Assembly: GCA_040285855.1 (NCBI GenBank)
Contig: JAUFOQ010000017.1
Coordinates: forward strand, 1,426,001-1,490,000
Length of the DNA stretch: 64,000 nt
Direction: 5' to 3'
Source: Eukaryota sp. GEM-RC1
Taxonomy: Eukaryota
This document shows positions 4,683-38,769 of the stretch, in pieces. Made by a program: the position numbers and the translations under genes. The notes under the pieces were generated by a model. That model had not been told where the DNA came from and ran no database searches. It saw only the letters and a list, made by a program, of their open reading frames with translations. Every line of letters starts with the position of its first letter. The first letter of the stretch is position 1.

Positions 4683-5542
4683 AAAACCATTTATGAAGAC
4701 ACCAACGTCCACTGTTTGACCTTAAAGTTGAAACACATTTTCTGTATAGAGTATGTGATCAACAGTAACAGTTGTTTAATGAGATTGGTCAATGAGAAGA
4801 GGATATGCGTTTTCCAGCTCTCAACTCAGCTTAAAGACTTTCAACGAGTTCTGAACACCGTTTTGAACAAGAAAACATTCCGTCGGCCACGGTACAAAGT
4901 GTTGTTTCAAACGATTAGTTCCAGTGACGGACTGGTGGACACAATGACGATAATGAACTGTAGCTTCTGATACAACAGAACCTTTGGAAGGAGGTTGGTA
5001 TACAATTGTAGAGTGATGCCAAATGATGTGGGATTTTGATACATATCGAAAGGGATATGGAATATAAAGAATTACGAGTACATGTATCAGCACGACGAAA
5101 AAGATTTTTATTTATGGGTGTCTCAAGTTCGAAATCAGAATGCGCAGAAATGCGCGCATTTGGCGCATTTTGACGCATTTCATTTCTGGAAAAAGTGCGC
5201 ATTTGACAAATTTTCTTCCATCTCATACAAGGAAACATCCAGTTTGAAGAGGCCGTGCTTACAAGGTAATCAGTAGAGTCTTTTCTTCGGCCACTGAGAG
5301 AGAAAAGTGACGAAGAGTCGTTGCTGTCTGCATTCTGAACTATTTCACCTTCATCAATGTCGTTGAGACATACTACAAAACAGTGAGAGTGTTGATATTT
5401 TACAAAATTTGGAAGAGAGAAATAGGAGTAGGAAGAAATGAGAATTGAACACATAAATATGCGTTTCGGAAACGCATTTTGGAAACGTGGAAACGTTTCT
5501 GAAACGTTTCAGCCAAATTTTGTTACGTTTCTCGTAACACTA

Positions 5543-8251: not shown

Positions 8252-10409
8252 TTGAGCTCTGAACCAATTTTGTCCAAACAATTAGATAATTCTTGAGAAA
8301 TTTTAAGAACATTCCCAAGCCAACATCCTAGAAAACGAAAAGCGCCTTCAACATAATTGATAAATGGAATCTGAACTCCATAAATACATAATTCTTTTGT
8401 AGATCTACCAATTAATAAACATTTGTCTGGGTTCAGAGATAAACCCAATGTTTCATAAATATCAGCCACTTCTACAGCGATCTTTTTAACAATTCAAGGG
8501 GACCAATAATAGAAATATCATCCATATAGCCAACTATCTTAAGGTCTGGGCATTTTTTTAAAATACACAAAAGCGAATCATTGAATAGCCAAACAAAGGA
8601 AAAGAGGACCAAGAGGATCTCCTTGTTTAACACCAGACATAGATTTCAATGAATATGAATCATAAATTAAATCGCTTGGTTTTCGATAAAATAAATAAAA
8701 GTAGGACGTCAACTCAGGAAAGTCTTTTTCAATAGCAGCAAAAACAGATTTACGACTAACTGAATTAAGCGCATTTATGAAATCAAGATTAAAAATGAAA
8801 TTATCATCATGTGAATTGAAAAACAAATCTGATGTTAAGGCAGCAACAGAAGCTCCGTCAATTGTCTTAATTCCAAATTGAAATGGAAACAAAAAGCGAC
8901 CCGCTTTATCGACCACTCGATTAAACACAATTGATGCGAATAAACGAGAAATTGATTCTCCAACTGCAATTGGACGGATTCCATCAGGCTTAATTCCGTT
9001 ACCTGGTTTTACTAAAGCAATAAGTCGAGCAGCAGTCAATTCAATTGGAGGAATGACTTTCAAACAAACCATCTGTTGGAAGTAATTAGCAAGATCTTTA
9101 GAAATTTCTGGAGCTGACTTGCAAGCAGCTACAACAAATCAAATAAAATACCTGAAGGTCCAGCTGCTTTACCTTTAGGAAGTCTAGCAATAGCATTTGC
9201 AACTTCAGTTGGGAAAATAGGATTATCAATCCAGAATTGACAAATTTGAGGTTTAACACACAAAAACTCTTCTTTTGAATGCAATTTGACCATTTTCTGA
9301 ACCGTTTTAGAATTTGGAATAGCCATTGCTGAAGAAAAGATAGACTTAACTCCAGAACCATAACGCCCACGAAGACATAATTTCCGGACCACCTTACTGT
9401 TAGAAAATGATTTAACTTTTTCAGAACTTGATTTCCTCAACATCATTTTGTTCTTTTTAGCAAGAACTTCCAGAACCTCGTGATATTTCACCGGTTCTGG
9501 TTCAGGTTTGACGTAAATGCCTGTAATTCCATAGAAAGAGGAATAGAAGCCGAAGGACTGGATTCAACTGGAATTTTGACTGGACAACGCAAAGAATCGA
9601 TCGTTGTACAGGATTTACAAAAAAGAAGGGGTCTGCCATTAAGCACATCAGTCACAATTTTATGACAAAACGCACAACTAGAAGAATTTTTAGTCGCTGG
9701 TTTTTCTGTGAAGTCACTAACTGAAGCAAGAAGTAATTCAGCGGAATCAAGGTCTTCAGATTTAGGAGTATCAAAGGAGTCAAGATCAAGAGATGATTTG
9801 AGAGAAAAAGAATCAGACTGAAGTTTTAACTGTTCTTCTTGAGCTACTGGACATGTTGTAATATAATGGCCAGACTGGCCACAATTAGAACAACACCTAG
9901 AAGTCTTAATTGGTTTCAATGAAATTTCTTTAACAATTAAATCAGGTTGAACAGAAGGGTCACATGAAGCTTTAAACTTCGAAGAGTGTGAAGCATAAGA
10001 AGAAGAAGAATTAAGACCAACTGATGAATTGAGCACTTTCTCAGCTAAAGGGCTTACAGGAAAAACCGGAATCGTAACTTGATGCAAAGAACGTGTAGAA
10101 GGAGCAGGAGAGTCAGAAAAAACAGCAGACGGCAATTGATCAGAAAGAGAAGGAACATTCAAATTGGAGAAGGACTTTCTCATAACCAATCTATTGGAAA
10201 GTGGAGGATACGGGTTTCGCTGAGACAAAGAAGAAGATAAAGAAGTAACATGAAGAGGAGCAACCAGAGGTCTCGCAGCAGAAAAAGATGATGAAAGAAA
10301 CGAAGCCGACTTACCACTGATACGTTTCACAGGGTCAGGGTTTTTTTGGGAAGATGGCGAGAAGCAGATTTTGGAAGAAAAGTGCCAGAAGGCATGTGGG
10401 AGAAAAAAA

Positions 10410-10454
10410 TTTAAGAGTCATCTGACTTTAAGAGTCATCTGACTTTAAGAGTCA
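10410..10454. repeat. 17-bp tandem/fold-back repeat (TTTAAGAGTCATCTGAC) at the 5' junction of the CRE element
   Basis: About 2.6 copies seen directly. Each unit is the TSD plus an inverted copy of adjacent target sequence. Confidence 0.85.
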
Positions 10455-11737
10455 GGATGTAACATTCTTCTTGGCCTATACTAAGCTGATTGAACACTTC
10501 TTTCCAAAGAGGAAGGTGTAAACGAATACTTTCCAGTTGGACTAGGAGATTCTTTTTCATCGGATTTCAGAGGCACTTCTAGTTCGAGAAGTCGTGAGAC
10601 TTCTGATTGATGACGTGGCAGGCGATGATTGACTGGTATTGTCCACCTTCCCCAATTCTTTTGAATACCACGCAATCAACTCTTGATTCTTCTGATTTTC
10701 TGTTTCTAAAGTTTCAATTTTTGTAGATAATTTTAAAATTTCATCTTTCTGCTCAGAACTTCTAGATCGCTCATTCATCAGATTTTCCTCTAACTCAGTG
10801 ATTCCACTATCTCTACTTCTCACAAGTTGCTCCAACTCTGAAACTCTTCCACGTGCTGCATTTATCTCTGATCGAACTCTCTCAAGACCATCGCTTTATC
10901 CTTGTAATCTAACATTTGCTTCAGTAATGGTTTCTCTAAATATCAGGTTTTCCTTTTCCAAGTGAGTTATCTGCTTTGTCAAGTCTTGCTTCTCTTCTGA
11001 AGAAAAAGACAGGGACTTTTGAGAACCAGAGAGATCGTCTTTAACTTCTTCCAACTAGGATCTAAGAGAACTTAATTGCGATAGAAGACATTCATTACTT
11101 TTGATTTTCTGCTTCCAAAGTTTCAATCTTTGTACATAATTTTAAAATTTAATCTTTCTGCTCAGAACTTCTAGATCGCTCATTCATCAGATTTTCCTCT
11201 AATTCAGTAATTTCACTATCTTTACTCCTCACAATTTGGTCCAACTCTGAAACTCTTCCCCGTGCTACATTTCTCTCTGATCGAACTCTCTCCAGACCAT
11301 CGCTATATCCTTGTAATCCAACATTTACTTCAGTAATGGTTTCTCTAAATATCAGGTTTTCCTTTTCCAAGTGAGTTATCTGCTTTGTCAAGTCTTGCTT
11401 CTCTTCTGAAGAAAAAGACAGTGACTTTTGAGAACCAGAGAGATCGTCTTTAACTTCTTCCAACTAGGATCTAAGAGAAGTTAATTGCGATAGAAGAGAT
11501 TCATTCTCGGTAGTTAACTTGGAGTTTAAAGCTTCTTTTTCAGACAGTTTGGCCTTTAATGATGCAGTTATTGAGCGTAGATCTTCGACACGTGTTTCTA
11601 AATCTAATTGGTGGCGTGATGAAGTGGCAATTTGATCGTTCAATCTTTGGATCGTATCAATACTTTTTTGATTAGAAGAGCTCAGGTGAATTTCCAATTG
11701 AGAGATCTGTCATTGAAGATCAAGAACAAGACTTTCC
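10445..11737 (-). pseudogene. SAS-6-like paralogue B, coiled-coil/C-terminal portion with internal tandem duplication
   Basis: Near-identical to 14105-14535 (inverted) and to part of the 26177-28606 copy. In-frame stops. The ~10710-11095 segment is repeated at ~11100-11500. Confidence 0.8.
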
Positions 11738-11880
11738 AAAGTATTCGTTTAGTCCTACGTCTTTAGAATTATGTCTGAATTCAGCTAAGTATAGGCCAAG
11801 AAGAATGATACGTTCTGATTCGTAGGATATTCTTGGAGTATATTGTGTGTTTTCATGGTTTCAATGTGAGTTGGAAATCA
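11736..11880 (+). pseudogene. 3' end fragment of SAS-6-like paralogue A
   Basis: Matches 18239-18380 (PKYSF.PTSLEL.LNSAKYRPRRM.RSDS stop plus 3' UTR), fused in opposite orientation to the paralogue B fragment. Confidence 0.85.
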
Positions 11881-12080
11881 CTATTTTTTGGCTTTTATTG
11901 GTCTTTATAAAGATTATTTGTGCTTCCTGTTCAAAGGTTAATTCTCTACTTCAGTTCTTGTACTATCAAGAGTAGTTATCAAACCTCTACTTTTAAATAT
12001 ATTTCTATTACATCACTGTCATCAGGTTTCTTCAAGTTCTGTATTCTGAGTTCAGTGTTGACTGATTTACGGTTTTAAAC

Positions 12081-13001
12081 CATACTTGGAAAATACAGAC
12101 ACTCCCTGAAAAAAATACAGAAAATACCAAATTACAGAAAAAACACTTAATACAGAAAAATACAAAATAACTCGACCTAAGATAACTTTCCCAATAGTCA
12201 TGGTGAGAACTTTTTCTGTTTTTTAAAGTAACAATGACAAAAATTATATGGTTTTCACAGCCAAACTAAACATAACAAAACATCAAAAATACCCGAACAA
12301 ATATCAGGAAACCATTATTTAGTTTGCTGTCTTTTTTTGAGCAGCTGCCTTTCCAAAACACTCTTTCAATCATTCCAAAGGTTGAGAATCCCCGAACACA
12401 TCAAGAGAATTGGGTTATTTTTCATCGTCAGACGAGTTTGTGACAACAATATACAATATATTCAGCAAGAAGAACTACTCTACTTGCAATTTATCTTCCA
12501 TAAAACACGGTTGCATATGCTATCTTCATTGTCATCATCACAAACTGCTTCGTTTTCGAGAAGAAGTACATCAACACGAGATCTTTGACCATCATATATG
12601 TGCATACTCATACCTCCATTGGTAGTTAAAAAAAGTTAAACACTAGTGTTACCTGTTTTGAAAAGTTGATGTAAATTAAATTGCGGGTCTAGAGATCTAT
12701 CCAATGTTGCGTGTGAAGGACATTTCGGCCTTTTTGACTCTTAATGGTCCAGATAAGACCAATTGGTGTCTAGTATGTTTCCAAATTACGACCAACACGT
12801 AGATATAGAGAAAATTGAACAGTACATCTTCATCCAAAAATTGTCTTGGTACCATTTTATCCATAAAAATACAGAAAATACAGTATTAATTCAGCATAAC
12901 AAAATTCAAAAAATACAGTATTTATCGAGCCTGGGAAAATGCAAAAAAAGCAAAAAAAGCAAAAATACAAAAAAATACAGTATTTGTATTTTCCAAGTAT
13001 G
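12081..13001. mobile_element. Non-autonomous hAT element (921 bp)
   Basis: Perfect 17-bp TIR CATACTTGGAAAATACA. 8-bp TSD TTTTAAAC/TTTCAAAC. AAAATAC subterminal repeats. Confidence 0.88.
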
Positions 13002-13704
13002 TTTCAAACTACGCTATTCTCCTTAAATGACGTTACTAACATCAATTCTGAAAAACATTGAGAGCGTAATTAAATTTATATCAGCAAACAAAGTTTTAGA
13101 GATGAAAAGAGTTGACTTGTCAATGTCACTAATGTTTCTTGACTTTAAGCTAGTGAATAACTCAGCGCTCACTCCACTATAAGTATCAAGAAGCAATCTT
13201 TACTTTTTCAAGTCAATTAAGTTCAAGTGAATTTAATTTTTGTGTTAAACATTGTATTGAATTACGAATGTGAAAACAATGAGCCTGAAATTGGTTTTCG
13301 TGTATTTCCAATTCTTCTAATGCAGTATACTAACTGAACAATGGTCATTTTTAAAAAATAACCCACTATACAACTATATTACTATACAACTAACTTCTCG
13401 TTCAACTGGGTTGATTTTAGCAAAATTGAGTTTAGTACATTTATAAAAGAATGAGATATTAACAGAGCATTAATTCTGGAAACATTAGTCATACAAACAG
13501 TGTGCAAACTTATGTAAACAGATTTTAAAAGATTTGAACCACCTAGAAACAGCTGAAAAACGGAAAACGGATTTGTATTCCAAAGATGTTGCTAAACTCA
13601 ATCAAATTTTATATTGGTTCCATTTGCTATTTCTATTTTCAATAGTACTGTATTTTTGAAATGACATCTCAGTTTTTAACTCATTTTGGATCTATTTGTA
13701 AGTC

Positions 13705-14545
13705 CAACTATTGGAGTTTAACTTTGCTGATTTTGTTGATCAGATCAACGATCTGCTAATTGCTTGTTGAGGACCGAGATTCTCAACCTTATGTTGAGTT
13801 GGAACTCGGATCGACGTGTCAGCTTTCCTTTATGGGTCGATCTAAAGTTCGCCGTTTTCCTTTACTGTCACTGAATTTGACACGTGGCGAAGGTGCTGTT
13901 TTGGCAGAGTTCCTAGCAGGTAGACTGACTTGTACTACCAAAGATGCTGATGCCAATCAACACCAACTACTGGAACTCCAGCGAGAGTTGAAAAGTAGAA
14001 ACAAACAATACGACTCAATGGTTAACTCTTTCAAACAAGAAATAGACACTCTAAAGTCCAATCATGACACGTCTCTTCAGCAAAATTTTATCCAATTGTT
14101 AGAAAAGGAAAGTCTTGTTCTTGATCTTCAATGACAGATCTCTCAATTGGAAATTCACCTGAACTCTTCTAATCAAAAAAGTATTGATACGATCCAAAGA
14201 TTGAACGATCAAATTGCCACTTCATCACGCCAGCAATTAGATTTAGAAACACGTGTCGAAGATCTACGCTCAGTAACTGCATCATTAAAGGCCAAACTGT
14301 CTGAAAAAGAAGCTTTAAACTCCAAGTTAACTACCGAGAATGAATCTCTTCTATCGCAATTAAGTTCTCTTAGATCCTAGTTGGAAGAAGTTAAAGACGA
14401 TCTCTCTGGTTCTCAAAAGTCACTGTCTTTTTCTTCAGAAGAGAAGCAAGACTTGATAAAGCAGATAACTCACTTGGAAAAGGAAAACCTGTTATTCAGA
14501 GAAACCATTACTGAAGTAAATGTTGGATTACAAGGCTATTCTGAT
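13705..14545 (+). pseudogene. SAS-6-like paralogue B fragment (half of head domain plus coiled coil)
   Basis: LEFNFADFVDQI...LLSLNLTRGEGAVLAEFLAGRL followed by coiled coil. In-frame TGA and TAG are shared with the inverted copy at 11.1-11.7 kb. Confidence 0.82.
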
Positions 14546-14812
14546 TCTAGGGACTCCTTGTTAAACAATTCTAGATTCAAAAGAACCGATATCTGTTGCA
14601 TGTAACGAAATGATGAGAATTACTCTTATCATCCACAAAAACAACTTTGAAAATTAAAATAAATCAAGCTAATAGGAAGAGGTCTTTCTGAACTTAAAGA
14701 GGGTTCGCAGATCTCACGGAAACTAAAAAGAGAAACCCATTTTGATGGAAGTTCCTATGGCAATCAAAGCTTACCATGTAATGACGAACTGACGATCGTT
14801 GATGTGATTATA

Positions 14813-15219
14813 AAGTAAAATATGAAATTGAAGCCCCGGGGGTTGTCCATATAAGCCCCATCTTAAAATCGGCTACTATTACGTGGGGGCTACTATTACG
14901 TGGTGGGGCTTCTCTCTATAAGCCCCTCACCAAATCATGTTCTGAAGTCTCAGTTGTGTCGCATGTAGTGTATTCAATGTCAAAAACAATAAAAACAGTT
15001 ACTCATCAACAACTTAAGAATGAAAGTAAGAGAAACAGTTAATCGTCTTTTTGAATAAATCTTTGAACCGATTAATAAAGATCGATACTTATAAATTATT
15101 TATACCCAGGGGCTACTATTACGTGGTGGGGCCTCTCCGTATAAGCCCCATCCAAAAATCGGCCACTATTGCGTGGGGGCCACTATTACGTGGAGGGGCT
15201 TCAATTTCATATTTTACTT
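14813..15219. mobile_element. pogo/Tc1-mariner-type MITE (407 bp)
   Basis: Perfect 25-bp TIR AAGTAAAATATGAAATTGAAGCCCC with flanking TA. Subterminal GGGGCTACTATTACGTGG repeats. Confidence 0.9.
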
Positions 15220-16146
15220 TAGTTGCCAGGTGTAAATACAGTACATGTTTAGATGCCAATAATGCAGTTTCTCCACTTGTGCTCTAAGAAGAATTTTTCA
15301 AAAAGTAAATACTATGCCCTCTTAACAGCTCTCAAATACACAAAGCTCGTTGTACATCGTCGCAATTATATATTGGAGAAGATATCTTCTAAAGTTTGAC
15401 TTGGTATGGTCCAGATTGCCACTCTGTTTAATAATTCTGAAAACAAAAAAACTCAAAGTAAAAGACATTTGCAGAAGGAAACGTCAGCAATCAGAAGAGA
15501 TCAAAAACACGATAGATGATTGAGAGACAACATGACGTGATGGACAAAGAGCAAGAGGTGGTCAACAGAATCTCCATGAGACTCTGTTGCAGAGAAATGC
15601 TTAAAAGGACGAGGTAAAAGAATATCAGGAAATCCAAACAATACAGTCTTTCTATAGGAGAAACAAAGAATGAAGAATGAGTACACCAACCAACATGGTC
15701 TCAGAAATTAATTAGTTTTCTGTTGTTGGAGGAAAGTTGTGAAGAAGTTCTGGTTGGATCATTTAAGTTGAAGAGAAGAGGAGACATTCAATTGAAGAAC
15801 GAAGGGTTGTCCTCCAAAAGCTGACGTCATCATAGTTGATAAGGAGAGAAAACTGAACAACGCCAAGTTCGAATGTCATCTTTGGCCATGAGACATCTCT
15901 TCATTGCCAAACCAAACTTCATTTCGAAAAGTAACCAGAGAATTCTTCTTCAGAGTTAGATTGGAAGTGTTCAGAAGACCTGAACGCTAGCAAGAATGTA
16001 CCACGTATTGGTCAATAAAGTTCAAGTTATATTGATTTGAGGCCACAAAGTGGTTGTGTTAGAAGACGACGCAAAGGGAACTACATGTACATCATCACCA
16101 CTTGATACAAGAAATGATCCTAAACTCACTAATACTACTAGTAGTA

Positions 16147-16801
16147 CAGTCATCCGTGCCTTGAAATTACAGGAACCTTGAAATTATAGGATCTCTCTAT
16201 CTTCTCAACTACTTTCACTCATGATACTCTCTGTACCTAATAAAACACCAATTCTTCATTGTATTGCTTAGTCCTTCACATGGATCGCACTGATTCGATA
16301 AGTGTCCTTTTCTCGTTGATCTTGTCGTCCGCAAGGGTGTCAATGATGTCCTTTTCGGTGGAATTCATCAACGTAACGTGTAGAGCTGAGTTTGGCATGT
16401 TTCGGACCACGTTCAGCAAGATTTGCGGAAACGAGTACCCAACAATACTACCACAACAACGAAGAAGACGTTTGTGTTGTATAGTTATGTATTTTGGGAT
16501 GTAAGTGGAAGAATCCACCAGTTGAAACGCAGGCAAACGCGAAAACACGATTTATGACACACATAGTAACATCAAACTGACTCTATCAATCATCAGCATA
16601 GCTAGATTGTATTTAGGGAGTTATCAGAACACTAAAGGCTCGAAAACAGGAAATTCCATGTAGACTCATATCAACGTTTCAGAGGATGCACTTAAGTAGT
16701 TCTAGTGGCTGATAGCAGTTATATTAGAGAAAAGTTGTTGATGTTAGAGGTATCGGAAGGGTGTAACATTTTGGGACCTTGAAATTACAGGAACCTGACT
16801 G
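16147..16801. mobile_element. Probable degenerate pogo-like non-autonomous element
   Basis: TA-CAGTCA...TGACTG-TA ends with CCTTGAAATTACAGGA subterminal motifs at both ends. The left TIR is damaged. Confidence 0.5.
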
Positions 16802-16818
16802 TATTCGTCCTCTTTGTC

Positions 16819-18328
16819 ATGACCTTGCCCAAGATTCTGCTGCAATTCACCTTATCTTCTGTGACAATCAAGGCTTCTGCCGATCTTCCCCTTGTAGAAG
16901 GTCCCCTTGTAGTTCGTGTTTTACAACTTCAGCCGTCTCTTCTCCGGATCACAATCACAAGGGATCCACAAGTTGATCCCACTTTCTTCTACTTCTGTGA
17001 TCTTGACAGTCCTTCATTCTCCCTTCTCAAAGACGATCAGCGATTGGAATATGAGTTCGCCGATCTCGTGGACAAGCTCAAATTTCTATTGGCAGATTCT
17101 CAAGACCAACAATCTCCAAGATTTGCGCAGTTGAATTTTGACTCACCTTCTGCGTGTCGGTTTGCTTCTATGTGTAGAACCTCTTTTGTTTCTTACGTTG
17201 AGCTCTCCCTGAACTTAACACGTGGAACTGACTCTGATTTAATCGATTTCTTGGCTGGTAGATTGGCTTTCACCACCAAAGAAGTTGAAAGTTTAAAGAA
17301 TGAACTACTTGAACTGCAACTGGAGCTCAAAAGTAGAAGTAATCGTTTTGATTTAAAGTTGAGCTCATTTAAAGAAGAAATTTCAAGTCTGCAATTAACG
17401 TATGACACTTATCGTCAGCAAAGCTCTAATGAGTTATCAGAAAAGAAAGTCAGTCTCGTGACCTTCAATCACAGGTGTCTCGGTTAGAAACTGAGTTGAG
17501 CACTTCCAATCAAAAAAGCATTTGTATGATCAAATCATTGAATGAGCAACTATCTGATATGTCACGTCATCAATCAGAGTTGCAAACTCATGTTGATCAT
17601 CTACAATCTGATTCACTTTCTTTAACGTCCAAGTTGGCGGACGCAGACGCTTTGAACTGCAAATTAAACAATCAGAATCAAACTCTCCAGTCTCAATTAA
17701 CTTCTGTTAAGTCTAACTTAGAAGAAGCTGAAGCTAATCTGAATAGTTCTCAGGAATCCTTATCTTTTCGATAGAAGAAAACAAAAACTTGAAGAAACAG
17801 ATTTCCACCTTGGAAGATGAAAATGTATTATACAAAGATACAATTAAAGAAGCTAATGTTAGACTCATAGGTTATAGCGATGGACTTAACAGAGTTAGAT
17901 TTGAAAGAGGTGAAGTACGGTCTAGAGTGGCAGAACTTGAAAAGGAAGTTGCTCAAAATGAGATCAAAATCAACGAATTAGGGGATCTCTTGAAGACTCA
18001 ACAAGCGAAAAATTCAGAACAGGAAACCGAAATCTTTACATTACGTTCAAAAGTTCAAAAATTAGAAGATCATGCGCAATCGCAACAACAAGCTATAACT
18101 TGGTATTCGAAAGAACTTGGTAAATTGGATCAACCCAATCAAGGTCAGTCCTCCACGTCACCAATCAGAACTTCTCGAACTAGAAGTGTTTTTGGAGTTC
18201 CTTTGCATTTGGAGGAGAATGAATCTCCAAGTAAGTCCCCAAAGTATTCGTTTAATCCTACATCTTTAGAACTGAGTCTGAATTCAGCTAAGTATAGGCC
18301 AAGAAGAATGGTACGTTCTGATTCGTAG
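16819..18328 (+). CDS. SAS6: SAS-6-like centriole cartwheel protein, paralogue A (full length, two frameshifts at short homopolymers)
   Basis: N-terminal head with SAS-6/PISA-like pattern DP.FFYFCDL....F..LK.DQ.L..EF...  and LSL.L.RG.D..L..FLA, followed by a ~300-aa coiled coil and a Ser/Pro-rich tail. Frameshifts at ~17445 and ~17765. Confidence 0.8.
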
Positions 18329-18912
18329 GATGTTCACGGAGTTTATTGCTTATTTTTATGGTTTCCAATGTGAGTTGGAAAATGTCTTCTATGTATGTTT
18401 AGTTATCAATTTTAATTGTTTCTTTGTGGAGATTTCCCATGTACATTTATAAAAATATGTTCTTTCATTATCCAGACTAGTCAATCCAAGTGTAGTTCTA
18501 CTTTCTCTTTCATCGCTCATTTTTTGGTTTCTATAGTTTCTAAACCCAATGTCTTATAAATAATAGCAACTTTCACTACCTCTGTTTTCAAAAAATCACC
18601 AAGATATAACATGAAAACAACATCTTTGTATTACTAAAGCGAATCATGAATTGCGAAACAAAAAAACTAACAATGAAGATCCCATTGATAGACTGATATA
18701 TTGAACTATAACTTGTATGTTTTTTAATACAGTATTATTTAATAAGAGTTTATATGCAACAATAAATTAATACATACTAATTCAGAAAATGAAAGAAGTT
18801 AAATTCTCCACATCAAGACGAGAATTATGCCTATACAACTTCGAGTAAATGAAACATAAAAACTTGGGAATGCTTCTATAAAGAGCGAACATATTTCGAT
18901 TAATCCATACAG

Positions 18913-19229
18913 CTAATTATTTGAAGGAGTTGAAGATGACACTAATTCTAAAAAATCCTTAACTTTTTCGATAGAAGAAAACAGAAACTTGACGAAACAA
19001 ATTTCCACCTTAGAAGATCAAAATTAATTGTACAAAGATACAATTAAAGAAGCTAATTAGACTCATAGGTTATAGCGATGGCCTTAATAGAGTTAGATTT
19101 GAAAGAGGTGAAGTACGGTCTAGAGCGGCAGAGCTTGAGAAGGAAGTTGCTGATAATGAGATCAAAATCAACGAATTAGGGAATCTGATGATGGTTGAAC
19201 AATCGAAAAATCCAGAACAGGAAACCGAA
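18913..19229 (+). repeat. Left inner inverted repeat (SAS-6 A coiled-coil fragment)
   Basis: Reverse complement of 23335-23653 with both breakpoints shared. By eye about 16 substitutions and a 2-bp indel. Confidence 0.92.
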
Positions 19230-19713
19230 ATCTTCTATATATGTAAATGATCCATTTAAAGTTAGTAAATTTTTATCAATTGATTATCCCAATCTTGAAG
19301 AACTAGAAGCTATAGAAGTAAATCTTTATCATCTTCCTGATAAATTATTTAAATTAATAATAATTAATTGTTCATTTAATAATCTAGCGTATATTCCATA
19401 TTCTTATCAATTAAGGATTCTATCGTGTAAGGGAAATAATTTAACATCAATCAACTATTATGAAAATTTAGAAAAATTAGAATGTGATGGTAATTCATTG
19501 ACATCTATATGTCACTATCCTAAATTGATACACTTGAGTTGTAAATATAATAATATAAGAAATATTGCAAACATGGATAGTTTAAAGAAATTGGAATGTG
19601 ATTTTAATTCCCTATTATATTTAAATGACTACAAAAACTTGGAAGAATTATCATGTAAAGGAAATAAAGTATTAATTCCCGAAATGAAGAAATTAAAACA
19701 AATACGAAAATGA
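19230..19713 (+). CDS. Short-unit leucine-rich repeat protein, 5'-truncated
   Basis: ~20-aa repeats L..L.C..N.L..I (e.g. LEKLECDGNSLTSI). Confidence 0.85.
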
Positions 19714-19728
19714 TTATTAAGTTAATAA

Positions 19729-20760
19729 ATGTTAGTTGCATTCTGTGGTTTAGACTCTACAGGAAAATCAACTGTGGTTTCCCATTTAAATGGTCACAAG
19801 ATTAAACTACCAGATAGGAGAACAGATAGTGGTAAGATAATTGACAAATTCCTTAAAAAAGAAATTCAAATGTCTGAACGTGATGCTCAAATGTTATTTG
19901 CAAAAAACAGAAAAGAAAAGAATGACGAAATTAAGATTGAATTATTAGAACGAGAAATTGTTTTAATGGATAGATGTTGGATTGATGGTGTTGCTTATTC
20001 TCCTCCAGAATCTTTTTACTGGGCATTGAATCAAGCAGAAGGCGAATTAATTCCAGACTTGGTGTTTTATTTCACTGAACAGTATAATCGAGATGATTTT
20101 GGAAAAGAATACTATGACAAAATTAATGTTAGAAAATCATTTGAAAAAATATTTGATTTGATGAATATTGAAGTTATCAGAGTTCCTAGAGCACCTATCA
20201 AGGATGTTGTTTTCACAATTGAAAATCTCATCAATGAACGAAGTAATCAATTATTACAAGAATATGTTCGACTACAAAATATTAAAAGAAAAATCATTGG
20301 AATTGATATGGATGATACTTTATGTGAAACAACAAAACAAATAAGTAAGGATTATCCAGAATTCAAATATGAAACAGATCCAAGTAAATTCCACACTAAT
20401 GGAATAGAAGTATTCTCAACAAAAGGATTCTTTAAAAACTTGGAACCAATTAATAGAATAGTTGATATAACTAAAAAGTTAATTGATGATGAATTTGAAG
20501 TTTATTTCGTAACTGCTGCATATCACAAAATGATTGATTCTGGAATAAGAGAAGAAAAACAAGAATGGCTTGAACAACATTTTCCCGAATTAAATATTCC
20601 TAATCATTTGATTAATATCAATAACAAACAATTGTTAAAATTGGATTTATTAATTGATGATAATGATTGTTATCAATCTAATTACAAGTTTATTAATTCT
20701 AAAGATTTAGAATCATATGAACAAGTAATGAATATTCTATTCGATTGTAGATTTAATTGA
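19729..20760 (+). CDS. Thymidylate kinase fused to NT5C-type 5'(3')-deoxyribonucleotidase (HAD)
   Basis: N-terminal half: P-loop GLDSTGKST, PDR...G..I, MDR...GVAYS. C-terminal half: HAD motif IGIDMDDTL, FF.NL.P, K.EWL..HFP, LLIDD. Intact 343-aa ORF. Confidence 0.9.
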   Translation: MLVAFCGLDSTGKSTVVSHLNGHKIKLPDRRTDSGKIIDKFLKKEIQMSERDAQMLFAKNRKEKNDEIKIELLEREIVLMDRCWIDGVAYSPPESFYWALNQAEGELIPDLVFYFTEQYNRDDFGKEYYDKINVRKSFEKIFDLMNIEVIRVPRAPIKDVVFTIENLINERSNQLLQEYVRLQNIKRKIIGIDMDDTLCETTKQISKDYPEFKYETDPSKFHTNGIEVFSTKGFFKNLEPINRIVDITKKLIDDEFEVYFVTAAYHKMIDSGIREEKQEWLEQHFPELNIPNHLININNKQLLKLDLLIDDNDCYQSNYKFINSKDLESYEQVMNILFDCRFN

Positions 20761-20947
20761 TAAATAATTTTTTTTTTCTTAGGAAATGTCAATCGAGAAT
20801 GCAATAAATAATTTGTGGGATTATTTTCGAAATATAATGACAATACATTTATTTTTACCAGTTTCGAGAATTATATAAATTCAATCAAGTGTAGGAAAAA
20901 ATCTAAACAAGCAGCTATTGATATTTAAAAAAAAATAAAAATCTTTT

Positions 20948-21254
20948 TATCCAATATATATGAAACGAGATCTCCATGTATCTGGAGTTATTACCATGGT
21001 ATTTTTTCCATAATCTGCATTTTTTAAATTATACGTAATGATTGTTTTATTTTGTTTGGTAAAACCATAAAAATCATCAGTGAAAAAATGTGCATTATTT
21101 ATGTACAAGTATTGTAAGAATTTAGGGTTTGAGATATAAATATAGTCGTGGTCAGTTCTTTTGGTTTTGATAAGTATATGATAATGGGATTTGAATAATA
21201 TTTTAGAATTTCGTCAATTATATCATTGTTTCCATGAAGAATGCAAATAGTCAT
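20948..21254 (-). CDS. Small unknown protein, paralogue of 21283-21633 (one homopolymer frameshift)
   Basis: Manual translation MTICILHGNND...IYLSKP(K)RTDHDYIYISNP shares IYL..P.RTDH.YI.I..P and DDF.G with its neighbour. Confidence 0.6.
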
Positions 21255-21282
21255 TTTAATTTGCAAAATAATATGATATACA

Positions 21283-21633
21283 CTATTCTTCTGTTTCCTT
21301 TTCCAATTCTTTAATTATTTTATTGAATTCTTCAAATGTCTTGATTTTGGTTTTCTTTACTCCAAGTTTTAATTTTTCTCCTTTAAACATTTTATGTTTT
21401 ACTTCATTCTCGGTTACAATAACTTTTTTGCAATTTGTCAATCCCTCAAAATCATCATTGCCAAAAATGTAAACTGTATCTGATAACTTTAGAAAGTCAA
21501 TTAAATCTGGAGAAGTAATATGAATATATTGATGATCTGTTCTTGTTGGTGTTTTTAGATAAATTGGCAAAACAGAATCATTGATATATTCAATTCCTTC
21601 AGGAATATTTTCATAAAAGATAAGATAAAGCAT
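21283..21633 (-). CDS. Small unknown protein (~116 aa)
   Basis: Open frame from ATG 21633 (MLYLIFYENIP...) with a tandem paralogue downstream. Confidence 0.7.
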   Translation of the reverse strand: MLYLIFYENIPEGIEYINDSVLPIYLKTPTRTDHQYIHITSPDLIDFLKLSDTVYIFGNDDFEGLTNCKKVIVTENEVKHKMFKGEKLKLGVKKTKIKTFEEFNKIIKELEKETEE

Positions 21634-21682
21634 TTTAATTTCCAAAATACTTATATATATAAAAATGATTTTTCTTTTCGAA

Positions 21683-22973
21683 ATGGAGTGTATTGTATGC
21701 GTCTTAAAATTTACAAAAACTAGGCAAAAATTACTTGTCCTTGTGGAGCTGATATATGTAAAAAATGTGTCAAAGAATTTGAAAAGGAACAAGTGAAATT
21801 AACTTGTATGAGTTGTAAGAATGAATGGACTAATGTTTTTATCAAGGAACATTTTGGTAGTTTATTTTTGAGAAATAGATTAAGACAACAAATTGAACAT
21901 GAATTTGAATTCGAAAAACAACGTTTGCCAGATTTAGTTGAAGAGGCAAAATATAAGTTGGAACAAGAAAACTGCAAAAAGAATTGGATAAAACACACAA
22001 ACTTTCAACTCAATTAGATATTGATTATCATTGTGCAAAGTTTACTATCTTAGATTCTAATACTCCAATTGAAGAGAGAATTAAAGTTTTACAAGGATAT
22101 GATGAATTAAAACAAAAATTTATTAATACTCAAAAAGAACACGAACGTCTTGTTATAAAGTATCGTAGATTACAGCGTGAATATAGAATGATGACAACTG
22201 ATAACGTATCAGAATTTCAACATCCATGTAATGATTGCAATGGTTTTATTGTAGATGGAAAATGTGTAATGTGTGACAAATTATATTGCATGCATTGCTT
22301 GGAAGAAAAACAAAAGGAACATAAATACAATAAAGAAACTTTAGAGACTGTTAGATTGATTAAAAAATCAACTAAACCTTGCCCAAAGTGTAATGTTTTG
22401 ATTCAAAAAATCGATGGATGTAATCAAATGTGGTGTACAAAATGTCATACTACTTTTAATTGGAGTTCATTGGAAATTGTTAGAGGAACCACTCACAATC
22501 CACATTATTTTGAATACTTGAGAAATAATAATGTAGTAATTAGACCTCAACCAAATTGTATGACTATATATGATACTATTGACGCACAATATCGTTTGGA
22601 AGTATATAATGTTCGTGGAAATTATATTGCTGCTAGAACTGCGCCTTATTTAACAATTAATAAATTGGATCGCAATATCACTCATACCATTGGAACAACT
22701 ACAAATAATATAAGAGCTCAAAAGATTAAATACTTGCAAAATAAAATTAGCTTGGACGACTTAAAGGAGTATTATATCAAGAATCGTTTAAAGATAATGA
22801 TGTGGACTGAAATACAAACCTTGTGGGATATTATTAAAGATTTTATCCAAGGACAATTTGCTCAGGAAAGATATCGAGATAGTGTATACATGAATATAAT
22901 TAACGATGCTATTGCATTGTTTAATAAAGATATAGAACTTATTTGCTATAGATTTAATAAAAGAAAGCATTAA
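21683..22973 (+). CDS. RBR (RING-IBR) E3 ubiquitin ligase of giant-virus type, two homopolymer frameshifts
   Basis: MECIVC...ITCPCG..ICKKC...CMSCKNEW, then PCNDCNGF...C..C..YC..C, then TKPCPKC...IQKIDGCNQMWCTKCHTTFNW...HNPHYFEY. Confidence 0.88.
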
Positions 22974-22991
22974 AAGTTACAAATTTTACTA

Positions 22992-23303
22992 TTGGATAAA
23001 AATGAATTATTTTTTTTAAAAAAAATGTTACATTCTTCATCATTAACATCCAACATTTCAGAGTTGATAAAGTTGAAAAAGTATTCAGCTCAAAGACCTA
23101 TTGATAATGATTATGTAGAGAAATTATATAATGAAGCAATGAATTATTTGAAATATGAATCAGGACCATTAATTAGACAATCTATATCTATATGTGAAAT
23201 TGACAATGAATATTTTATCATTGATGGACAACATCGAATAGAATGCTTTAAAAAGTTACTTCAACATGGACATCCTGATTATCAAATAAGTGCTCCGATA
23301 TAA
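22992..23303 (+). CDS. DGQHR-motif (ParB/DndB-like) protein, apparently 3'-truncated
   Basis: QRPID...V..L and IIDGQHR motifs. Confidence 0.75.
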   Translation: MDKNELFFLKKMLHSSSLTSNISELIKLKKYSAQRPIDNDYVEKLYNEAMNYLKYESGPLIRQSISICEIDNEYFIIDGQHRIECFKKLLQHGHPDYQISAPI

Positions 23304-23334
23304 AAATCTATCTTCAAAAATCTAAAAATCAAAA

Positions 23335-23653
23335 TTCGGTTTCCTGTTCTGAATTTTTCGATTGTTCAACCATCAAGAGATCCCCTAATTCGTTGATTTT
23401 GATCTCATTTTCAGCAACTTCCTTTTCAAGTTCTGCCGCTCTAGACCGTACTTCACCTCTTTCAAATCTAACTCTATTAAGGCCATCGCTATAACCTATG
23501 AGTCTAACATTAGCTTCTTTAATTGTATCTTTGTATAATAAATTATGTTTTTCCAAGGTGGAAATATGTTTCGTCAAGTTTCTGTTTTCTTCTATCGAAA
23601 AAGTTAAGGATTTTTTAGAATTAGTGTTATCTTCAACTTCTTCAAATAATTAG
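23335..23653 (-). repeat. Right inner inverted repeat (SAS-6 A coiled-coil fragment)
   Basis: Inverted partner of 18913-19229. Confidence 0.92.
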
Positions 23654-24105
23654 TTAATAAAACAATCTCGATTAATATTGGAAGTACTGCTGAGGATTTT
23701 TGTTATGCCTCTTCAAAATTACATTGTGTCGTGATCAAAGGAACAGCTTTTTCAGACTCTTTGGCACATTCGCATTGCTGTTTCTTTATTAAGAAGTTTT
23801 CCAAAGTATTTGGATCGTATACTGAACAAATTGTATCGTGGTGAAATGAGTTGATGTTGGGCATTTACTATCCTTTAAGTACTGGTATATTAGTATGTGC
23901 GTGTATTTTCTTGATTTGTGTTTATACAATGTATAACTACAATGTATACAAATTGTTAACTTAAAAATCTCGATTAGGTTTTAATATATGTTTGCTATTA
24001 GTGTATTCAAATTTACAACTACTTCCAAATAACTCATTGTTGAGTGTATGAGCAGAGAAAAATAATACTTTTAAACAGCACATAAGTTATAGTTCAATAT
24101 ATCAG

Positions 24106-24253
24106 TCTATGAATGGGATCCTCTTTGTTATCTTTCCTTTTGTTTCGTTATCCATGATTCGCTTTACTGTATTAGAAAAATATATGCAGTCCTTTAAGAG
24201 AGTTTGTTATAAAGATGACGTGTTCATGTTATACCTCGGAGATTTATTGAAAA
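24106..24253 (+). repeat. 148-bp direct repeat, copy 1 (copy 2 at 25763-25910), flanking a CRE insertion
   Basis: Direct alignment shows about 5 mismatches. The homologous site at ~18585-18700 carries a single copy. Confidence 0.9.
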
Positions 24254-25762
24254 AAATTTACAAACCTTTACTTTTTATTGACAATCACACTACAGTGTAC
24301 ATACATCTAATAATCAATATCCTCAAAGTCCAGATTGCCTATCTGGAAATTCTCACCTACCTTATCCTCATAATGTCTGCCGAGAGATAATAAAGCGCTA
24401 GATACAGAAGTCACCATACCTATAAAGATAGCAAACACAATTCGACTTTTCCAAAATCCAAGATCAAAAGTCCTAGATGTTTTTTCTTTTACAATCTTCA
24501 CAACGATTTCAAGTAATGATGTTGCAGATCCACCTAAAGAACCGTACAGTGAAAATACAAAAGGGTACAACAAGTAATTCGAGTGTGAAGCCGAATTCAA
24601 TAATTTCAATTTAGCACAATATTTTTCTTAAGTTTTTCACCAATCAACAGAGGGTTTTCAGCCTTAGATTTAGCAAGTTTCTTGTTGGAGCCATTACAAA
24701 CGTCGATAGACATAACATCAGCAATAATGAAAGAGCCATCGAGACCAGGAAATATGACATCACCTCGGCTATTTCCAAACGATTTGTCAACATCTGTATC
24801 ATCAACCAACCCAGCCAAAACTGGTTCTAAAAAGGAAGTTATTCCATAAGATTTACACATACAATATAATTGATCCCTTACTGAATCATGAACATTACTT
24901 CTAAAAGAAATAAAACGGTTACAATTCAATAGATGTGCAGGTGTTACAGATTGCCCACATTGGCATTTCAAATTATGTGGAAGGTTATCAGGCCAAATAT
25001 ATGACCGTAAACGCATGTTTAATGACCGAGAGTTATCATCAAGAAAAAGACCGTAAACTTGAGGGATTTGAGTAATCAGACATGAAGCAGAGCTATTAGA
25101 AACTTCCGTTAAGAAATTTGCAAAAGCGGGATGTTTTTCCTTGACCAAGCCAAGTCGAACATTATAATCCAAGCTTTCAAAAATATTTGTAAGTTTATGT
25201 TGTAATTTTTTCAGACAGAACTGAAGATTAGTTAAACATCTTTCAGGTATTTCAGACACAGATTCTGGGAAACACTGAGACCAACCGTCAAAAGGTAATT
25301 TGATTAACGCTTCGTTTAAGTCAAATAAATATTTACATGAATTGGGGTTAATAAGTGAAATATCATTAGGAAATCGATTAACAAATTCAAAGATGAAATC
25401 TTTTCCGCCGCCTAAAAAAGCAGATTTGCAAAGAATTGATGATTTGGTAAAACCAATACCACCAAAATGAGCAGCAGTAAACAAATGACTTCTAAGTAAG
25501 GTTGAATCAACTTCTAACAATGAAGCAAAAAATTAATCCTCAACTCGTTAAAAGATCTACAAAAGTTCAGAGCGATTGAAGGAGCAGTAGATCTCAAAAG
25601 ATGTGTGATTTTTCCGGAGTAGCAAATTTTTAAAATAAAAAACTTGTTATGTTTTTCAATATCATATGAAGAAATTGTGTTGAGCTCTGAACCAATTTTG
25701 TCCAAACAATTAGATAATTCTTGAGAAATTTTAGGAACATTCCCAAGCCAACATCCTAGAAA
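24254..25762 (-). mobile_element. 5'-truncated CRE family F1 copy
   Basis: High identity to 1557-2944 plus 8252-8332. Encodes the zinc-finger/RLE C-terminus ending DFEDIDY. Confidence 0.92.
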
Positions 25763-26176
25763 TCTATGAATGGGATCCTCTTTGTTATCCTTTCTTTTGT
25801 TTCGTTATTCATGATTCGCTTTACTGTATTAGAAAAATATATGCAGTCCTTTAAGAGAGTTGGTTATAAAGATGACGTGTTCATGTTATATCTCGGAGAT
25901 TTATTGAAAATCGACGTAAGGAAAGATGCTGTCATTTTTAAACATCGGGTTTGACGCCAAATTCAGACACTATAGAAACCAAATAATGAGTGACGAAAAA
26001 GAATGTAAAACTACACTTGGATTGACTAGTCTGGATAATGAAAGAACATATTTTTATAAATGTACATGGGAAGTCTTCACAAAGAAACATGTAAAATTAA
26101 TAACTAAACATATATAGAAGACATTTTCCAACTGACATTGAAACCATAAAAATAAACAATAAATTCCAGGAACATC

Positions 26177-28606
26177 CTACGAATTAGAACGTACCATTCT
26201 TCTTGGCCTATACTTAGCTGAATTCAGACTTAGTTCTAAAGATGTAGGATTAAACGAATACTTTGGGGACTTACTTGGAGATTCATTCTCCTCCATTCAA
26301 GAAGTTCTGATTGGTGACGTGACGGACTTAGCTTGATTGAGTTGTTCCATTTTACCAAGCTCTTTCGAATACCATGTTATGGTTTGTTGTTGCATTTCAT
26401 TATTTTCTTCTAATTTTTCAATTTTTGAATGCAATGTTAAGATTTCGGTTTCCTGTTCTGAACTTTTCGATTGTTCAACCTTCAGGAGATCCCCTAATTC
26501 GTTAACTTTGGTCTCGTTTTTCTGCAACTTCGTTCTCAAGCTCTGCCGCTTTAGACCGTGCTTCCCCTCTTTCAAATCTAACTCTATTAAGGCCATCTCT
26601 ATAACCTATGAGTCTAACATTAGCTTCTTTAATTGTATCTTTGTACAATAGATTATGTTTTTCCAAGTTGGAAATCTGTTTCGTCAAGTTTTTGATTTCT
26701 TCTATCGAAAAGATAAGGATTCCTGAGAACTATTTAGATTAGCTTCAGCTTCTTCTAACCTAGACTTAACAGAAGTTAATTGAGACTGGAGGGTTTGATT
26801 CTGATTGTTAAATTTGCAGTTCAAAGCTTCTGCTTCTGTCAACTTGGAGGTTAAGGAAAGTGAATCAGATTGAAGATCATCAACACGTGTTTGCAACTCT
26901 GATTGATGACGTGACATATCAGATATTTGATCTTTTAACCTTTGGATCGTGTCGTTGATTCTTTGATTAGAAGAGCTCAGGTGAGTTTCCAATTGAGAGA
27001 TCTGTGATTGAAGATCAAGAACAAGACTTTCCTTTTCTGACAATTGTATAGAACTTTGCTGAAGAGACGTGTCATGATTGGACTTTAGAGTGTCAATTTC
27101 TTGTTTGAAAGAGTTAACCATTGAGTCATATTGTTTGTTTTTAGAGAAATTACCCTAAAACAAAGTTTTTCAAACCTGAGTTCCAAAAAAAAAGTTTCTG
27201 AAAACCCCGAAACATTGTCTTCATCATTTTTGCAAATCACCCTTAATCTTCAGAAAAGTCCCAGCACCATTGTGAAAGATGGATACTTTCAGCAACAGAT
27301 TGGAGCTTAAAGCTGCTTTATGCTGCTTGTGAATCAGAGGATGATCATCATCTCACAAAAACATATATTCCTCACTCTAAACGATGTATGGCCCCTTAAA
27401 GTGTCTTTTCCCTCTAAAGTTGCAGGTTTTGTTCTTCAAGAATATTTTCACACAGAGGGAATCACTTCGCTCGGTAAATTGTGCAAAACAAGCGTTATGA
27501 ATTCAACGTGGGAACGGGCAGATTCAATACAGAATCTTTGAACTCTTATGTGTGTTGAACTCACGTAAAAACACAGTATCTGGGTGCCATTCTTATTGCA
27601 ACATTGACAGGACATAAGAGAAAACGATGTCCCTAAAAAGATGGAGTCAGCTAGTTGTAGTTGGTATATGATGCGTTTTAGTGATATAAAAGACTTTTAT
27701 TTGCCAGAGCATAAGAAAAATAGGGGGCTGCAATCCCATCAACTCCATACTGCTCCCCTCACGATAAGGATGATAGTGTGAGAAAAGAGATGTAGAGGAG
27801 GGGAGATATATGTATAAACCCAATACTTCCCGATCTCTCTCCAATGATAAGACTGAAAGTGAAAGAAGCATGTTGTCAGGTGGTGTGATCTTAATGTGTG
27901 TCTCTCTAGAAGAGGTGGTACAAGATTTGTTGCATGTCGAACTTTATGGCCGATACGTAAACAGTACAAAGTTTGGAGAGGTTTGGAAACTTTGTTTTGG
28001 GGCAATCCTCCAAAAAAAACTTTGTTTTTGGGAAATAAAGGTTTGAGAAACTTTGTTTTTGGAACTCAGGTTTGAGAAACTTTGTTTTTGGGCGAAGTCT
28101 CTTGTTTTTACTTTTCAACTCTCGCTGAAGTTCCAGTAGTTGGTGTTGATTGTCTTCCACTTCTTTTGTAGTACAAATCAGTCTACCTGTCAGGAATTCT
28201 GCCAAAACAGCACCTTCGCCACGTGTCAAATTCAGTGACAGTAGAGGAAAACGGCGAACTTTAGATCGACCCATAAAGGAAAGCTGACACGTCGATCCGA
28301 GCTCCAACTCAACATAAGTTTTAGAATCTTGATCCTCACAAGCAATTAGCAGATCTTTGATCTGATCAACAAAATCAGCAAAGTTAAACTCCAAAAGTTG
28401 GTTTTCCTGAAGGAGGCCAAAAAAGAGTCAAGTTTGCAAAAGCACATAAACATGGGATCAACTTGAGGACCCCGAGTTATGACAAGGCGGATCGAACTGT
28501 CATCTTGTAGAAGGCGGACGATGAGAAGATCGGCAACAGAGGAACCTTCGCCTGAGGTTTTGACCGTACAAGTAGTCAAATTGCGTTCCAGAAGAATATT
28601 GGACAT
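26177..28606 (-). pseudogene. Chimeric SAS-6-like gene (paralogue B head, paralogue A tail) disrupted by a MULE insertion
   Basis: ATG 28606 MSNILLERNL...PQVDPMFMCFC...LEFNFADFVDQI. Sequence switches from B-type to A-type near 26930 and ends YRPRRMVRSNS. Confidence 0.82.
27144..28101. mobile_element. Non-autonomous Mutator-like element (958 bp)
   Basis: Perfect 9-bp TSD TTGTTTTTA (27135-27143, 28102-28110). Imperfect ~60-bp TIRs starting GAGA with AAAACAAAGTTTCTCAAACC sub-repeats. Removing it restores KSKNKQYDSMVNSF. Confidence 0.9.
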
Positions 28607-38723: not shown

Positions 38724-38769
38724 TTGTAAATTGTTAGTCCGCTTTACACTTTTTTTTACGTTTTTAATT

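What the first reader, a model, noticed from the sequence alone, without database searches (positions are those of the whole stretch)
10445..28606. Local amplification of SAS-6: at least eight copies or fragments of two paralogues in 18 kb
SAS-6 is normally single- or low-copy and dosage-sensitive. Here paralogue A (16819 full length; 11736, 18913, 23335 fragments) and paralogue B (10445, 11100, 13705, 28606) occur in both orientations. The heads are strongly diverged from each other. The locus behaves like a recombining multigene family or mobile unit rather than a housekeeping gene.
Basis: partly seen in the sequence, partly recalled or inferred. Interest (0 to 1): 0.7.

Follow-up and report, generated by a model that had tools for sequence, protein, structure and literature searches.

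The report
SAS-6 wreckage mirrored around viral DNA
A single-celled flagellate carries eight pieces of the centriole gene SAS-6 within 18 kb; seven are broken, one is likely the working gene, and the pile likely arose by a mirror-image duplication centred on giant-virus-like DNA, so it is mostly genomic debris rather than an expanded gene family.

Summary
Eight SAS-6-derived segments lie at the stated places on both strands, and the family call is confirmed (Pfam above cut-off, AlphaFold pLDDT 91, Foldseek to Bld12p). Two old paralogues, A and B, diverged under purifying selection (dN/dS about 0.3) within this Skoliomonas-like metamonad lineage.

The reading as an expanded working family does not hold. 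Only A (16819-18328) is full length and stop-free. Its two 1-bp deletions in base runs look like assembly errors, since five such breaks occur in 11 host genes of the window. The other seven are fragments, or carry stops or an insertion. The 28606 copy is a B/A chimera split by a 958-bp transposon-like insert.

The copies form a decayed palindrome: left arm on +, right arm on -, around a 4.1-kb, 26%-GC giant-virus-like cassette. Both arms end within about 5 bp of the same SAS-6 position. Most likely history: tandem B-A pair, a break with viral DNA captured, inverted duplication, B/A crossover, then decay.

No genome or reads were available, so the integrity of A and the genome-wide copy number remain open. 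Interest is modest.

The parts
16819..18328 (+). Copy A: full-length SAS-6 (about 503 codons; head, coiled coil, tail), two 1-bp deletions in base runs near 17444 and 17765, no in-frame stop; likely the working gene
   Evidence: Pfam SAS-6_N 39.4 bits; model pLDDT 90.8; Foldseek 3q0x E 4e-11; collinear with P0004, 499 aa; 0 stops in 494 codons
27144..28101 (.). 958-bp non-coding insert in copy C with about 60-nt inverted ends and a 9-bp target-site duplication (Mutator-like by recalled hallmark)
   Evidence: Inverted arms 27143-27203 and 28042-28102, 87%; the same 9-mer on both sides; four ORFs inside without a meaningful Pfam hit
26178..28606 (-). Copy C: pseudogene chimera, B-type head and first coil, A-type from about 26925 on; frame breaks, a deletion of about 30 nt with a stop, and the insert
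13704..14540 (+). B1: paralogue-B fragment (half head plus coil), 2 stops, 1 frame break
11098..11737 (-). B2: paralogue-B coil fragment, 3 stops (2 shared with B1); 98% identical to B1
10445..11096 (-). B3: paralogue-B coil and tail fragment, in tandem with B2 (408-bp overlap, 94%), 3 stops
11736..11877 (+). E: A-type tail and 3' flank, joined in opposite orientation to the start of B2
18913..19237 (+). D: A-type coil fragment, inner end of the left arm; 1 stop, 2-bp deletion
23333..23653 (-). D': inverted partner of D (94.7%), inner end of the right arm; ends about 5 bp from the point where D ends
19238..23332 (.). Giant-virus-like cassette at the centre of the palindrome (GC 0.262 against 0.369 for the rest): LRR gene without a start, thymidylate kinase-NT5C fusion, two unknown ORFs, RING-IBR gene in two frames, short GmrSD/DndB-like ORF
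   Evidence: 76 of 80 candidate viral stretches encode RING-IBR relatives, many from GVMAG contigs; kinase fusion has one relative, P0002, 50%
18329..18912 (+). Non-coding left-arm stretch (3' flank of A, decayed reverse-transcriptase piece, spacer), homologous to the right arm
   Evidence: 85-93% over the 3' flank, 81% over the RT piece, weak gapped match over the spacer
24254..25762 (-). Non-LTR retroelement piece in the right arm, between two copies of a 148-bp stretch
   Evidence: 24106-24253 and 25763-25910, 96.6%; 95.8% to 1527-2945

Best explanation
The stretch holds seven broken SAS-6 pieces and one full-length copy (A) that is likely the organism's working SAS-6 gene, arranged as a decayed palindrome that likely formed by an inverted duplication around captured giant-virus-like DNA. 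Steps: (1) SAS-6 duplicated long ago into paralogues A and B, both kept under purifying selection (shown); B probably lay upstream of A in tandem (inferred from B1 before A). (2) A partial copy D arose behind A (shown). (3) A break inside D was probably repaired by joining two sister copies of the broken end through a 4.1-kb piece of viral DNA, which mirrored the B-A-D block (mirror shown, mechanism inferred). (4) In the right arm a crossover between the B and A copies made chimera C (chimera shown, route inferred). (5) Transposon insertions, further inverted and tandem copies (B2, B3, E), patchy gene conversion and stops wrecked all but A (lesions shown, conversion inferred). A would build the ninefold cartwheel as usual, by coiled-coil dimers and head-to-head contacts (from established knowledge, not tested here).
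For: Family. A and B are sisters, 97/95 support, apart from the two named Skoliomonas-type SAS-6 proteins; dN/dS 0.24-0.36. A has 0 stops in 494 codons, while B1, B2, B3, C and D have 2, 3, 3, 1 and 1. The chance of zero stops under 3-5% neutral drift is 0.12-0.04. A keeps Phe at the head-to-head contact site and is collinear with P0004. Its two breaks are of the kind seen 5 times in 11 host genes (14,783 bases; 0.34 per kb; P of 2 or more in A 0.09), including UBA1, whose pieces continue one PDB homologue across a break. Mirror: homology between the arms runs from the coil of A through its 3' flank to D, and D and D' end about 5 bp apart. Chimera. Mismatches between A and C are unevenly spread (P 0.009). 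No intact second copy.
Against: The second break in A is shared by pseudogene C, while D and D' have the full run, so it may be a real inherited deletion. Polarised with B, the A branch has 24 replacement and 6 silent changes against 16 and 7 on the C branch, so A looks no more constrained than C (the outgroup is saturated at silent sites). Close copies show more silent change than neutral decay predicts (25 of 63, 0.40 against 0.245, P 0.006), so several copies were under selection for a time. B2, B3 and E do not fit the mirror. The spacer between the RT piece and D aligns only weakly. The protein searches are weak for fragments: one search did not return the window's own B3, B2 or D' ORFs, and one search missed P0004.
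Confidence: 0.6

Rival explanations
1. A is dead too. The whole cluster is a pseudogene graveyard and the working SAS-6 lies elsewhere, unassembled or without a gene model.
For: One break is shared with pseudogene C. The A branch shows 24 replacement and 6 silent changes. The DNA upstream of A matches neither the upstream of C nor a recognisable neighbour gene. The NCBI model P0024 covers only the 3' half of A.
Against: No stop in 494 codons. Same error type in host genes. No other SAS-6 of this lineage. The organism has flagellar genes (a TTC8/BBS8-like ORF, label recalled) and needs SAS-6.
Confidence: 0.2
2. A working, recombining multigene family or mobile SAS-6 unit: several copies are expressed, or shuffled into an expressed site.
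For: Two selected paralogues, a clean B/A crossover and patchy identity, excess silent change among close copies.
Against: Seven of eight pieces are broken; B1 and B2 share two stops, and B3 shares one of them. Each named relative shows one SAS-6 representative, each with a 90% cluster of one member. 0 of 76 giant-virus loci carry SAS-6.
Confidence: 0.08
3. D and D' are the terminal inverted repeats of a virus-derived element that picked up SAS-6 DNA and inserted as a unit.
For: D and D' are 94.7% alike, share 13 of 19 informative sites against A and C, and bracket the cassette exactly.
Against: Arm homology goes on outside D and D' (score 108 against 77.6 +/- 6.2, 0 of 300 shuffles). No target-site duplication adjoins the ends. 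The cassette has no integrase, capsid or polymerase hit, and its end genes look cut.
Confidence: 0.07
4. The copies are assembly duplications.
For: The assembly has uncorrected 1-bp errors. No reads could be checked.
Against: The closest pairs differ by substitutions, not indels (B1-B2: 9 substitutions and 0 gaps in 434 columns; B2-B3: 23 and 0 in 408). Pair identities run from 60 to 98%. One copy holds an insert with a target-site duplication.
Confidence: 0.05

Closest known systems
Canonical SAS-6/Bld12p (Pfam PF16531; PDB 3q0x, 2y3w); orthologues P0004 (Eukaryota sp. TZLM1-RC, 499 aa) and P0006 (TZLM3-RCL, 535 aa)
   Same: Head fold, long coiled coil, tail, length about 500 aa; hydrophobic residue at the head-to-head site (A Phe, B Val, P0004 and P0006 Tyr).
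   Different: Here duplicated within the lineage and surrounded by seven broken pieces; A is 44% identical to P0004 in the head and 28% in the coil.
Multi-copy SAS-6 in ciliates (two genes in Tetrahymena, four in Paramecium; passages of PMC4113102)
   Same: More than one SAS-6 paralogue in one protist genome, so two paralogues alone are not new.
   Different: Those are counted as genes there; here paralogue B survives only as broken pieces, clustered and recombined with A.
Inverted duplications with a central spacer (fold-back and breakage-fusion-bridge; abstract of PMC3907307)
   Same: Mirror-image arms around a single-copy spacer.
   Different: There the spacer is the host's own DNA at the fold-back loop; here it is foreign, virus-like DNA, and the arms are old (about 70-99% alike) and riddled with insertions.
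Endogenous large-DNA-virus genes in metamonad genomes (egovirus homologues and polintons in Parabasalia; passages of 10.1101/2024.03.23.586382)
   Same: Virus-type genes inside a metamonad genome.
   Different: A 4-kb hallmark-free fragment in a free-living lineage that the paper's main text does not mention; virus group not determined.

Membership tests
SAS-6 (canonical) | SAS-6_N head domain | tested here: met
   A: 39.4 bits against cut-off 25; PDB sequence hits 2y3w, 6zz8, 3q0x. C head piece 23.4 bits, below cut-off.
SAS-6 (canonical) | SAS-6/XRCC4-type head fold followed by a long helix | tested here: met
   Model pLDDT 90.8 from a 15-row alignment; Foldseek top hit 3q0x_A, E 4.4e-11, TM 0.70. 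The B head was not folded.
SAS-6 (canonical) | Long coiled coil and tail (unlike head-only SAS6L) | tested here: met
   About 500 aa when read through with X, collinear with P0004.
SAS-6 (canonical) | Hydrophobic loop residue for head-to-head contact (Phe131 in zebrafish, PMC4113102) | tested here: met
   Phe in A in the column of the NxF motif; Val in B.
SAS-6 (canonical) | Intact, expressed reading frame | tested here: inconclusive
   Two 1-bp breaks, no stops; no reads available.
SAS-6 (canonical) | Ring assembly and basal-body location | not testable with these tools
   Needs bench work.
Functional multigene family | Several intact copies | tested here: not met
   1 of 8 segments is full length and stop-free.
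Functional multigene family | Recombination between copies | tested here: met
   Chimera C and uneven arm identity.
Mobile unit carrying SAS-6 | Element ends with target-site duplication, or dispersed copies | tested here: inconclusive
   No such ends at the D and D' junctions; no dispersed copies, but those searches miss fragments and the genome was not available.
Inverted duplication with spacer | Continuous mirrored arms ending at one point | tested here: met
   the spacer part of the arms aligns weakly.
Endogenous nucleocytovirus fragment | Virus-type genes, compact and compositionally distinct | tested here: met
   GC 0.262, GC3 0.15-0.20 against 0.32-0.41 in three host genes; RING-IBR relatives in 76 viral loci.
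Endogenous nucleocytovirus fragment | Hallmark genes (capsid, DNA polymerase B, packaging ATPase) | tested here: not met
   None among the seven cassette ORFs scanned; the cassette is called virus-like only.

The most novel reading that the evidence does not exclude
Integration of giant-virus DNA broke and mirrored the host's SAS-6 locus, and the resulting array still works as a recombination reservoir that feeds sequence into the one expressed SAS-6, which would explain its many replacement changes.
Probability: 0.1. Interest if true: 0.7.

Novelty: new member of a known kind. Interest (0 to 1): 0.3.

Why it matters
As most likely read, it matters little for centriole biology: one ordinary SAS-6 amid debris. 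It is a well-preserved record of how a duplicate of an essential gene is lost. Two long-selected paralogues were mirrored, recombined and reduced to one. It is also a possible case of viral DNA captured at a chromosome break, and evidence that a large DNA virus infects this free-living metamonad lineage, since a named relative holds a 50%-identical kinase fusion. Practically, the database entries for copy A split this SAS-6 into a 222-aa and a 257-aa piece, so surveys could wrongly score it as headless or missing.

Tried and rejected
No whole genome is held, so there is no genome-wide count. No sequencing run was listed, so read depth and expression are untested; this is no evidence either way. 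SAS-6 relatives in viral contigs: 0 of 11 candidates. In metagenome contigs: 0 of 189. Kinase fusion in viral contigs: 0 of 24. The search for longer proteins found 0 of 2,984 candidates but also missed P0004. The single-sequence fold was poor (pLDDT 47.8) and was replaced by the alignment-based model. A head-dimer prediction was never run, so there is no verdict on binding. Stop-codon recoding was rejected: B stops face Ser, Asn, Glu, Tyr and Lys in A, and long host ORFs are open under the standard code. A real 29-nt intron at the second break of A, as in model P0024, is judged unlikely: the same stretch is 30 in-frame bases in B, and the read-through aligns to P0004 without a gap there; it is not excluded. 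The upstream regions of A and C are unrelated (86 of 200 shuffles score as high). The outer flanks of D and D' do not resemble SAS-6. Earlier scan notes held nothing relevant.
Full report
Setting. The window is an intron-poor eukaryote sequence, rich in transposon debris between about 1 and 40 kb and gene-dense after it. The closest named proteins come from Eukaryota sp. TZLM1-RC and TZLM3-RCL. These strain labels resemble those of the Skoliomonas-type metamonads of 10.1101/2023.05.03.539051, whose assemblies used Nanopore reads with Illumina correction (seen: passages; section 5); the link between labels and genus is my inference.

Observation. The A head passes the Pfam SAS-6_N cut-off (39.4 against 25 bits) and hits zebrafish and Chlamydomonas SAS-6 in the PDB. 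It folds at pLDDT 90.8 from a 15-row alignment, with Bld12p 3q0x as top structural match (E 4.4e-11, TM 0.70). The ESM Atlas agrees (score 0.93, SAS-6_N).

Two real paralogues. A and B-type pieces are 41-53% identical in protein, with dS 0.9-1.9 and dN/dS 0.24-0.36 over five overlapping comparisons (Nei-Gojobori counts, codons at gaps and breaks left out). In a 13-row tree A and a B composite are sisters (97/95), apart from P0004 and P0006 (P0014 and P0020 of alignment A2 were left out). The duplication is therefore old but specific to this lineage. The loop residue that drives head-to-head contact (Phe131 in zebrafish; passages of PMC4113102) is Phe in A, Val in B and Tyr in the two relatives. 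Two or four SAS-6 genes are already known in Tetrahymena and Paramecium (same passages; the primary papers were seen only as citations).

Only A could be a gene. A spans about 503 codons, collinear with the 499-aa P0004, and has no stop in 494 codons scored. It has two 1-bp deletions in short base runs. I counted five such breaks in 11 long host genes (14,783 bases): METTL-like, BTB/RCC1-like, TSR1-like and two in UBA1 (gene labels other than the methyltransferase and UBA1 are recalled). PDB homologues run on across the second UBA1 break. At that rate two breaks in A have P 0.09. All other segments are wrecked. B1, B2 and B3 carry 2, 3 and 3 stops, partly shared. D has a stop and a 2-bp deletion. 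D' and E are short fragments. C has frame breaks, a deletion of about 30 nt with a stop, and a 958-bp insert with inverted ends and a 9-bp target duplication.

Results against a working A. Its second break is shared with C, while D and D' have the full run. Polarised with B, the A branch has 24 replacement and 6 silent changes against 16 and 7 for C, with 22 unpolarised. The NCBI model P0024 covers only the 3' half and skips that break as a 29-nt intron. I put the chance that A is intact at about 0.7.

Is there another SAS-6? Among 1.84 billion representatives, 15 passed E 0.001. The four strong ones were A's own head, a B1 piece, P0004 and P0006, each with a 90% cluster of one member (10 of the 15 hits looked up in part, 9 plus P0002). 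An intact B should have appeared, being under 50% identical to P0004 over most of its length, unless hidden in a cluster. No protein of 390-2000 aa matched the A head (0 of 2,984 candidates), but that search also missed P0004. A coil-and-tail profile found only P0024 among 7,995 scored candidates of 39-326 aa; it did not return the window's own fragments, so it says little about fragments elsewhere. An intact second copy is unlikely but not excluded.

Architecture. B1, A and D lie on +, D' and C on -, around 19238-23332. The arms are homologous from the coil of A through its 3' flank (85-93%), a decayed reverse-transcriptase piece (81%), a weakly aligned spacer and D/D' (94.7%), once a retroelement piece in the right arm is set aside. 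The spacer match beats 300 of 300 shuffles. D and D' stop about 5 bp apart in SAS-6 coordinates, where the cassette begins. The cassette has GC 0.262 against 0.369 and tightly packed ORFs. Its RING-IBR gene has relatives in 76 of 80 candidate viral stretches, many from giant-virus MAGs. Its kinase-NT5C fusion has one relative, P0002, on a different contig from P0004. No hallmark viral gene is present, and 0 of the 76 loci carry SAS-6 or any other cassette gene apart from the RING piece (18 of 76). Copy C follows B at 166 of 189 diagnostic sites before about 26925 and A at 209 of 259 after. This is the product expected of a crossover in a tandem B-A pair. B2, B3 and E form a separate tandem and inverted knot next to a retroelement.

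Mechanism. Shown: paralogy, the mirror, the chimera, the insertions and the stops. Inferred: a break in D, joined to its sister end through viral DNA, mirrored the B-A-D block. A fold-back with the cassette as loop (abstract of PMC3907307) is possible, but it would need priming within 5 bp of the D junction. For a while several full copies were probably under selection: silent changes among close pairs are 25 of 63, against 0.245 expected (P 0.006, four pooled pairs, simple null). Uneven identity between the arms (P 0.009) suggests gene conversion. Decay then left A.

Artefact check. The closest copies differ by substitutions with almost no gaps, identities span 60-98%, and one copy holds an insert with a target duplication. 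That is not the pattern of assembly duplication, although single junctions remain unverified.

Literature. I found no description of this locus. None of the 25 papers listed of 308 held both Skoliomonas and SAS-6. No paper held Skoliomonas, endogenous and virus together. Listings showed nothing on it. Passages of 10.1101/2024.03.23.586382 describe virus-type genes in Parabasalia only.

Verdict. Observation confirmed, interpretation partly supported. This is an ordinary SAS-6, probably single and working, inside a decayed palindrome centred on virus-like DNA. New member of a known kind; interest 0.3. The boldest reading not excluded, a virus-triggered recombination reservoir feeding the expressed gene, has probability 0.1.

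Noticed in passing
window 19729-20760: Intact thymidylate kinase fused to an NT5C-type 5'-deoxyribonucleotidase; the only relative found is P0002 in a named relative (50%), pointing to a shared, unsampled large DNA virus of this lineage.
   Followed up: partly
window 8200-10430, 1516-3032, 24254-25762, 33734-34500, 37965-39312, 46458-47373: Decayed non-LTR retroelement family (zinc knuckle and reverse transcriptase). The 5' end of one copy abuts the end of B3 with a 17-bp unit repeated about three times.
   Followed up: partly
window 6363-8106: hAT-like transposase remnant (weak DUF659 match, below cut-off).
   Followed up: no
window 12070-13010: A second stretch with inverted ends, seen by eye, between B2/E and B1; probably another non-autonomous DNA transposon.
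   Followed up: no
window 3588-4686: Gag-like ORF with a CCHC motif (3724-4512, -) between two 136-bp direct repeats (99%), like a minimal LTR element.
   Followed up: no
window 31390, 36830, 50210, 54720, 54925: 1-bp deletions in base runs break host genes, UBA1 twice; gene models from this assembly will be split or given false introns.
   Followed up: yes
window 61540-62105: COMMD-like gene (label recalled) with an apparent 33-nt GT-AG intron, showing that short introns occur here.
   Followed up: no
window 14811-15221: GC-rich short repeats in direct and inverted order between B1 and A; nature unknown.
   Followed up: no
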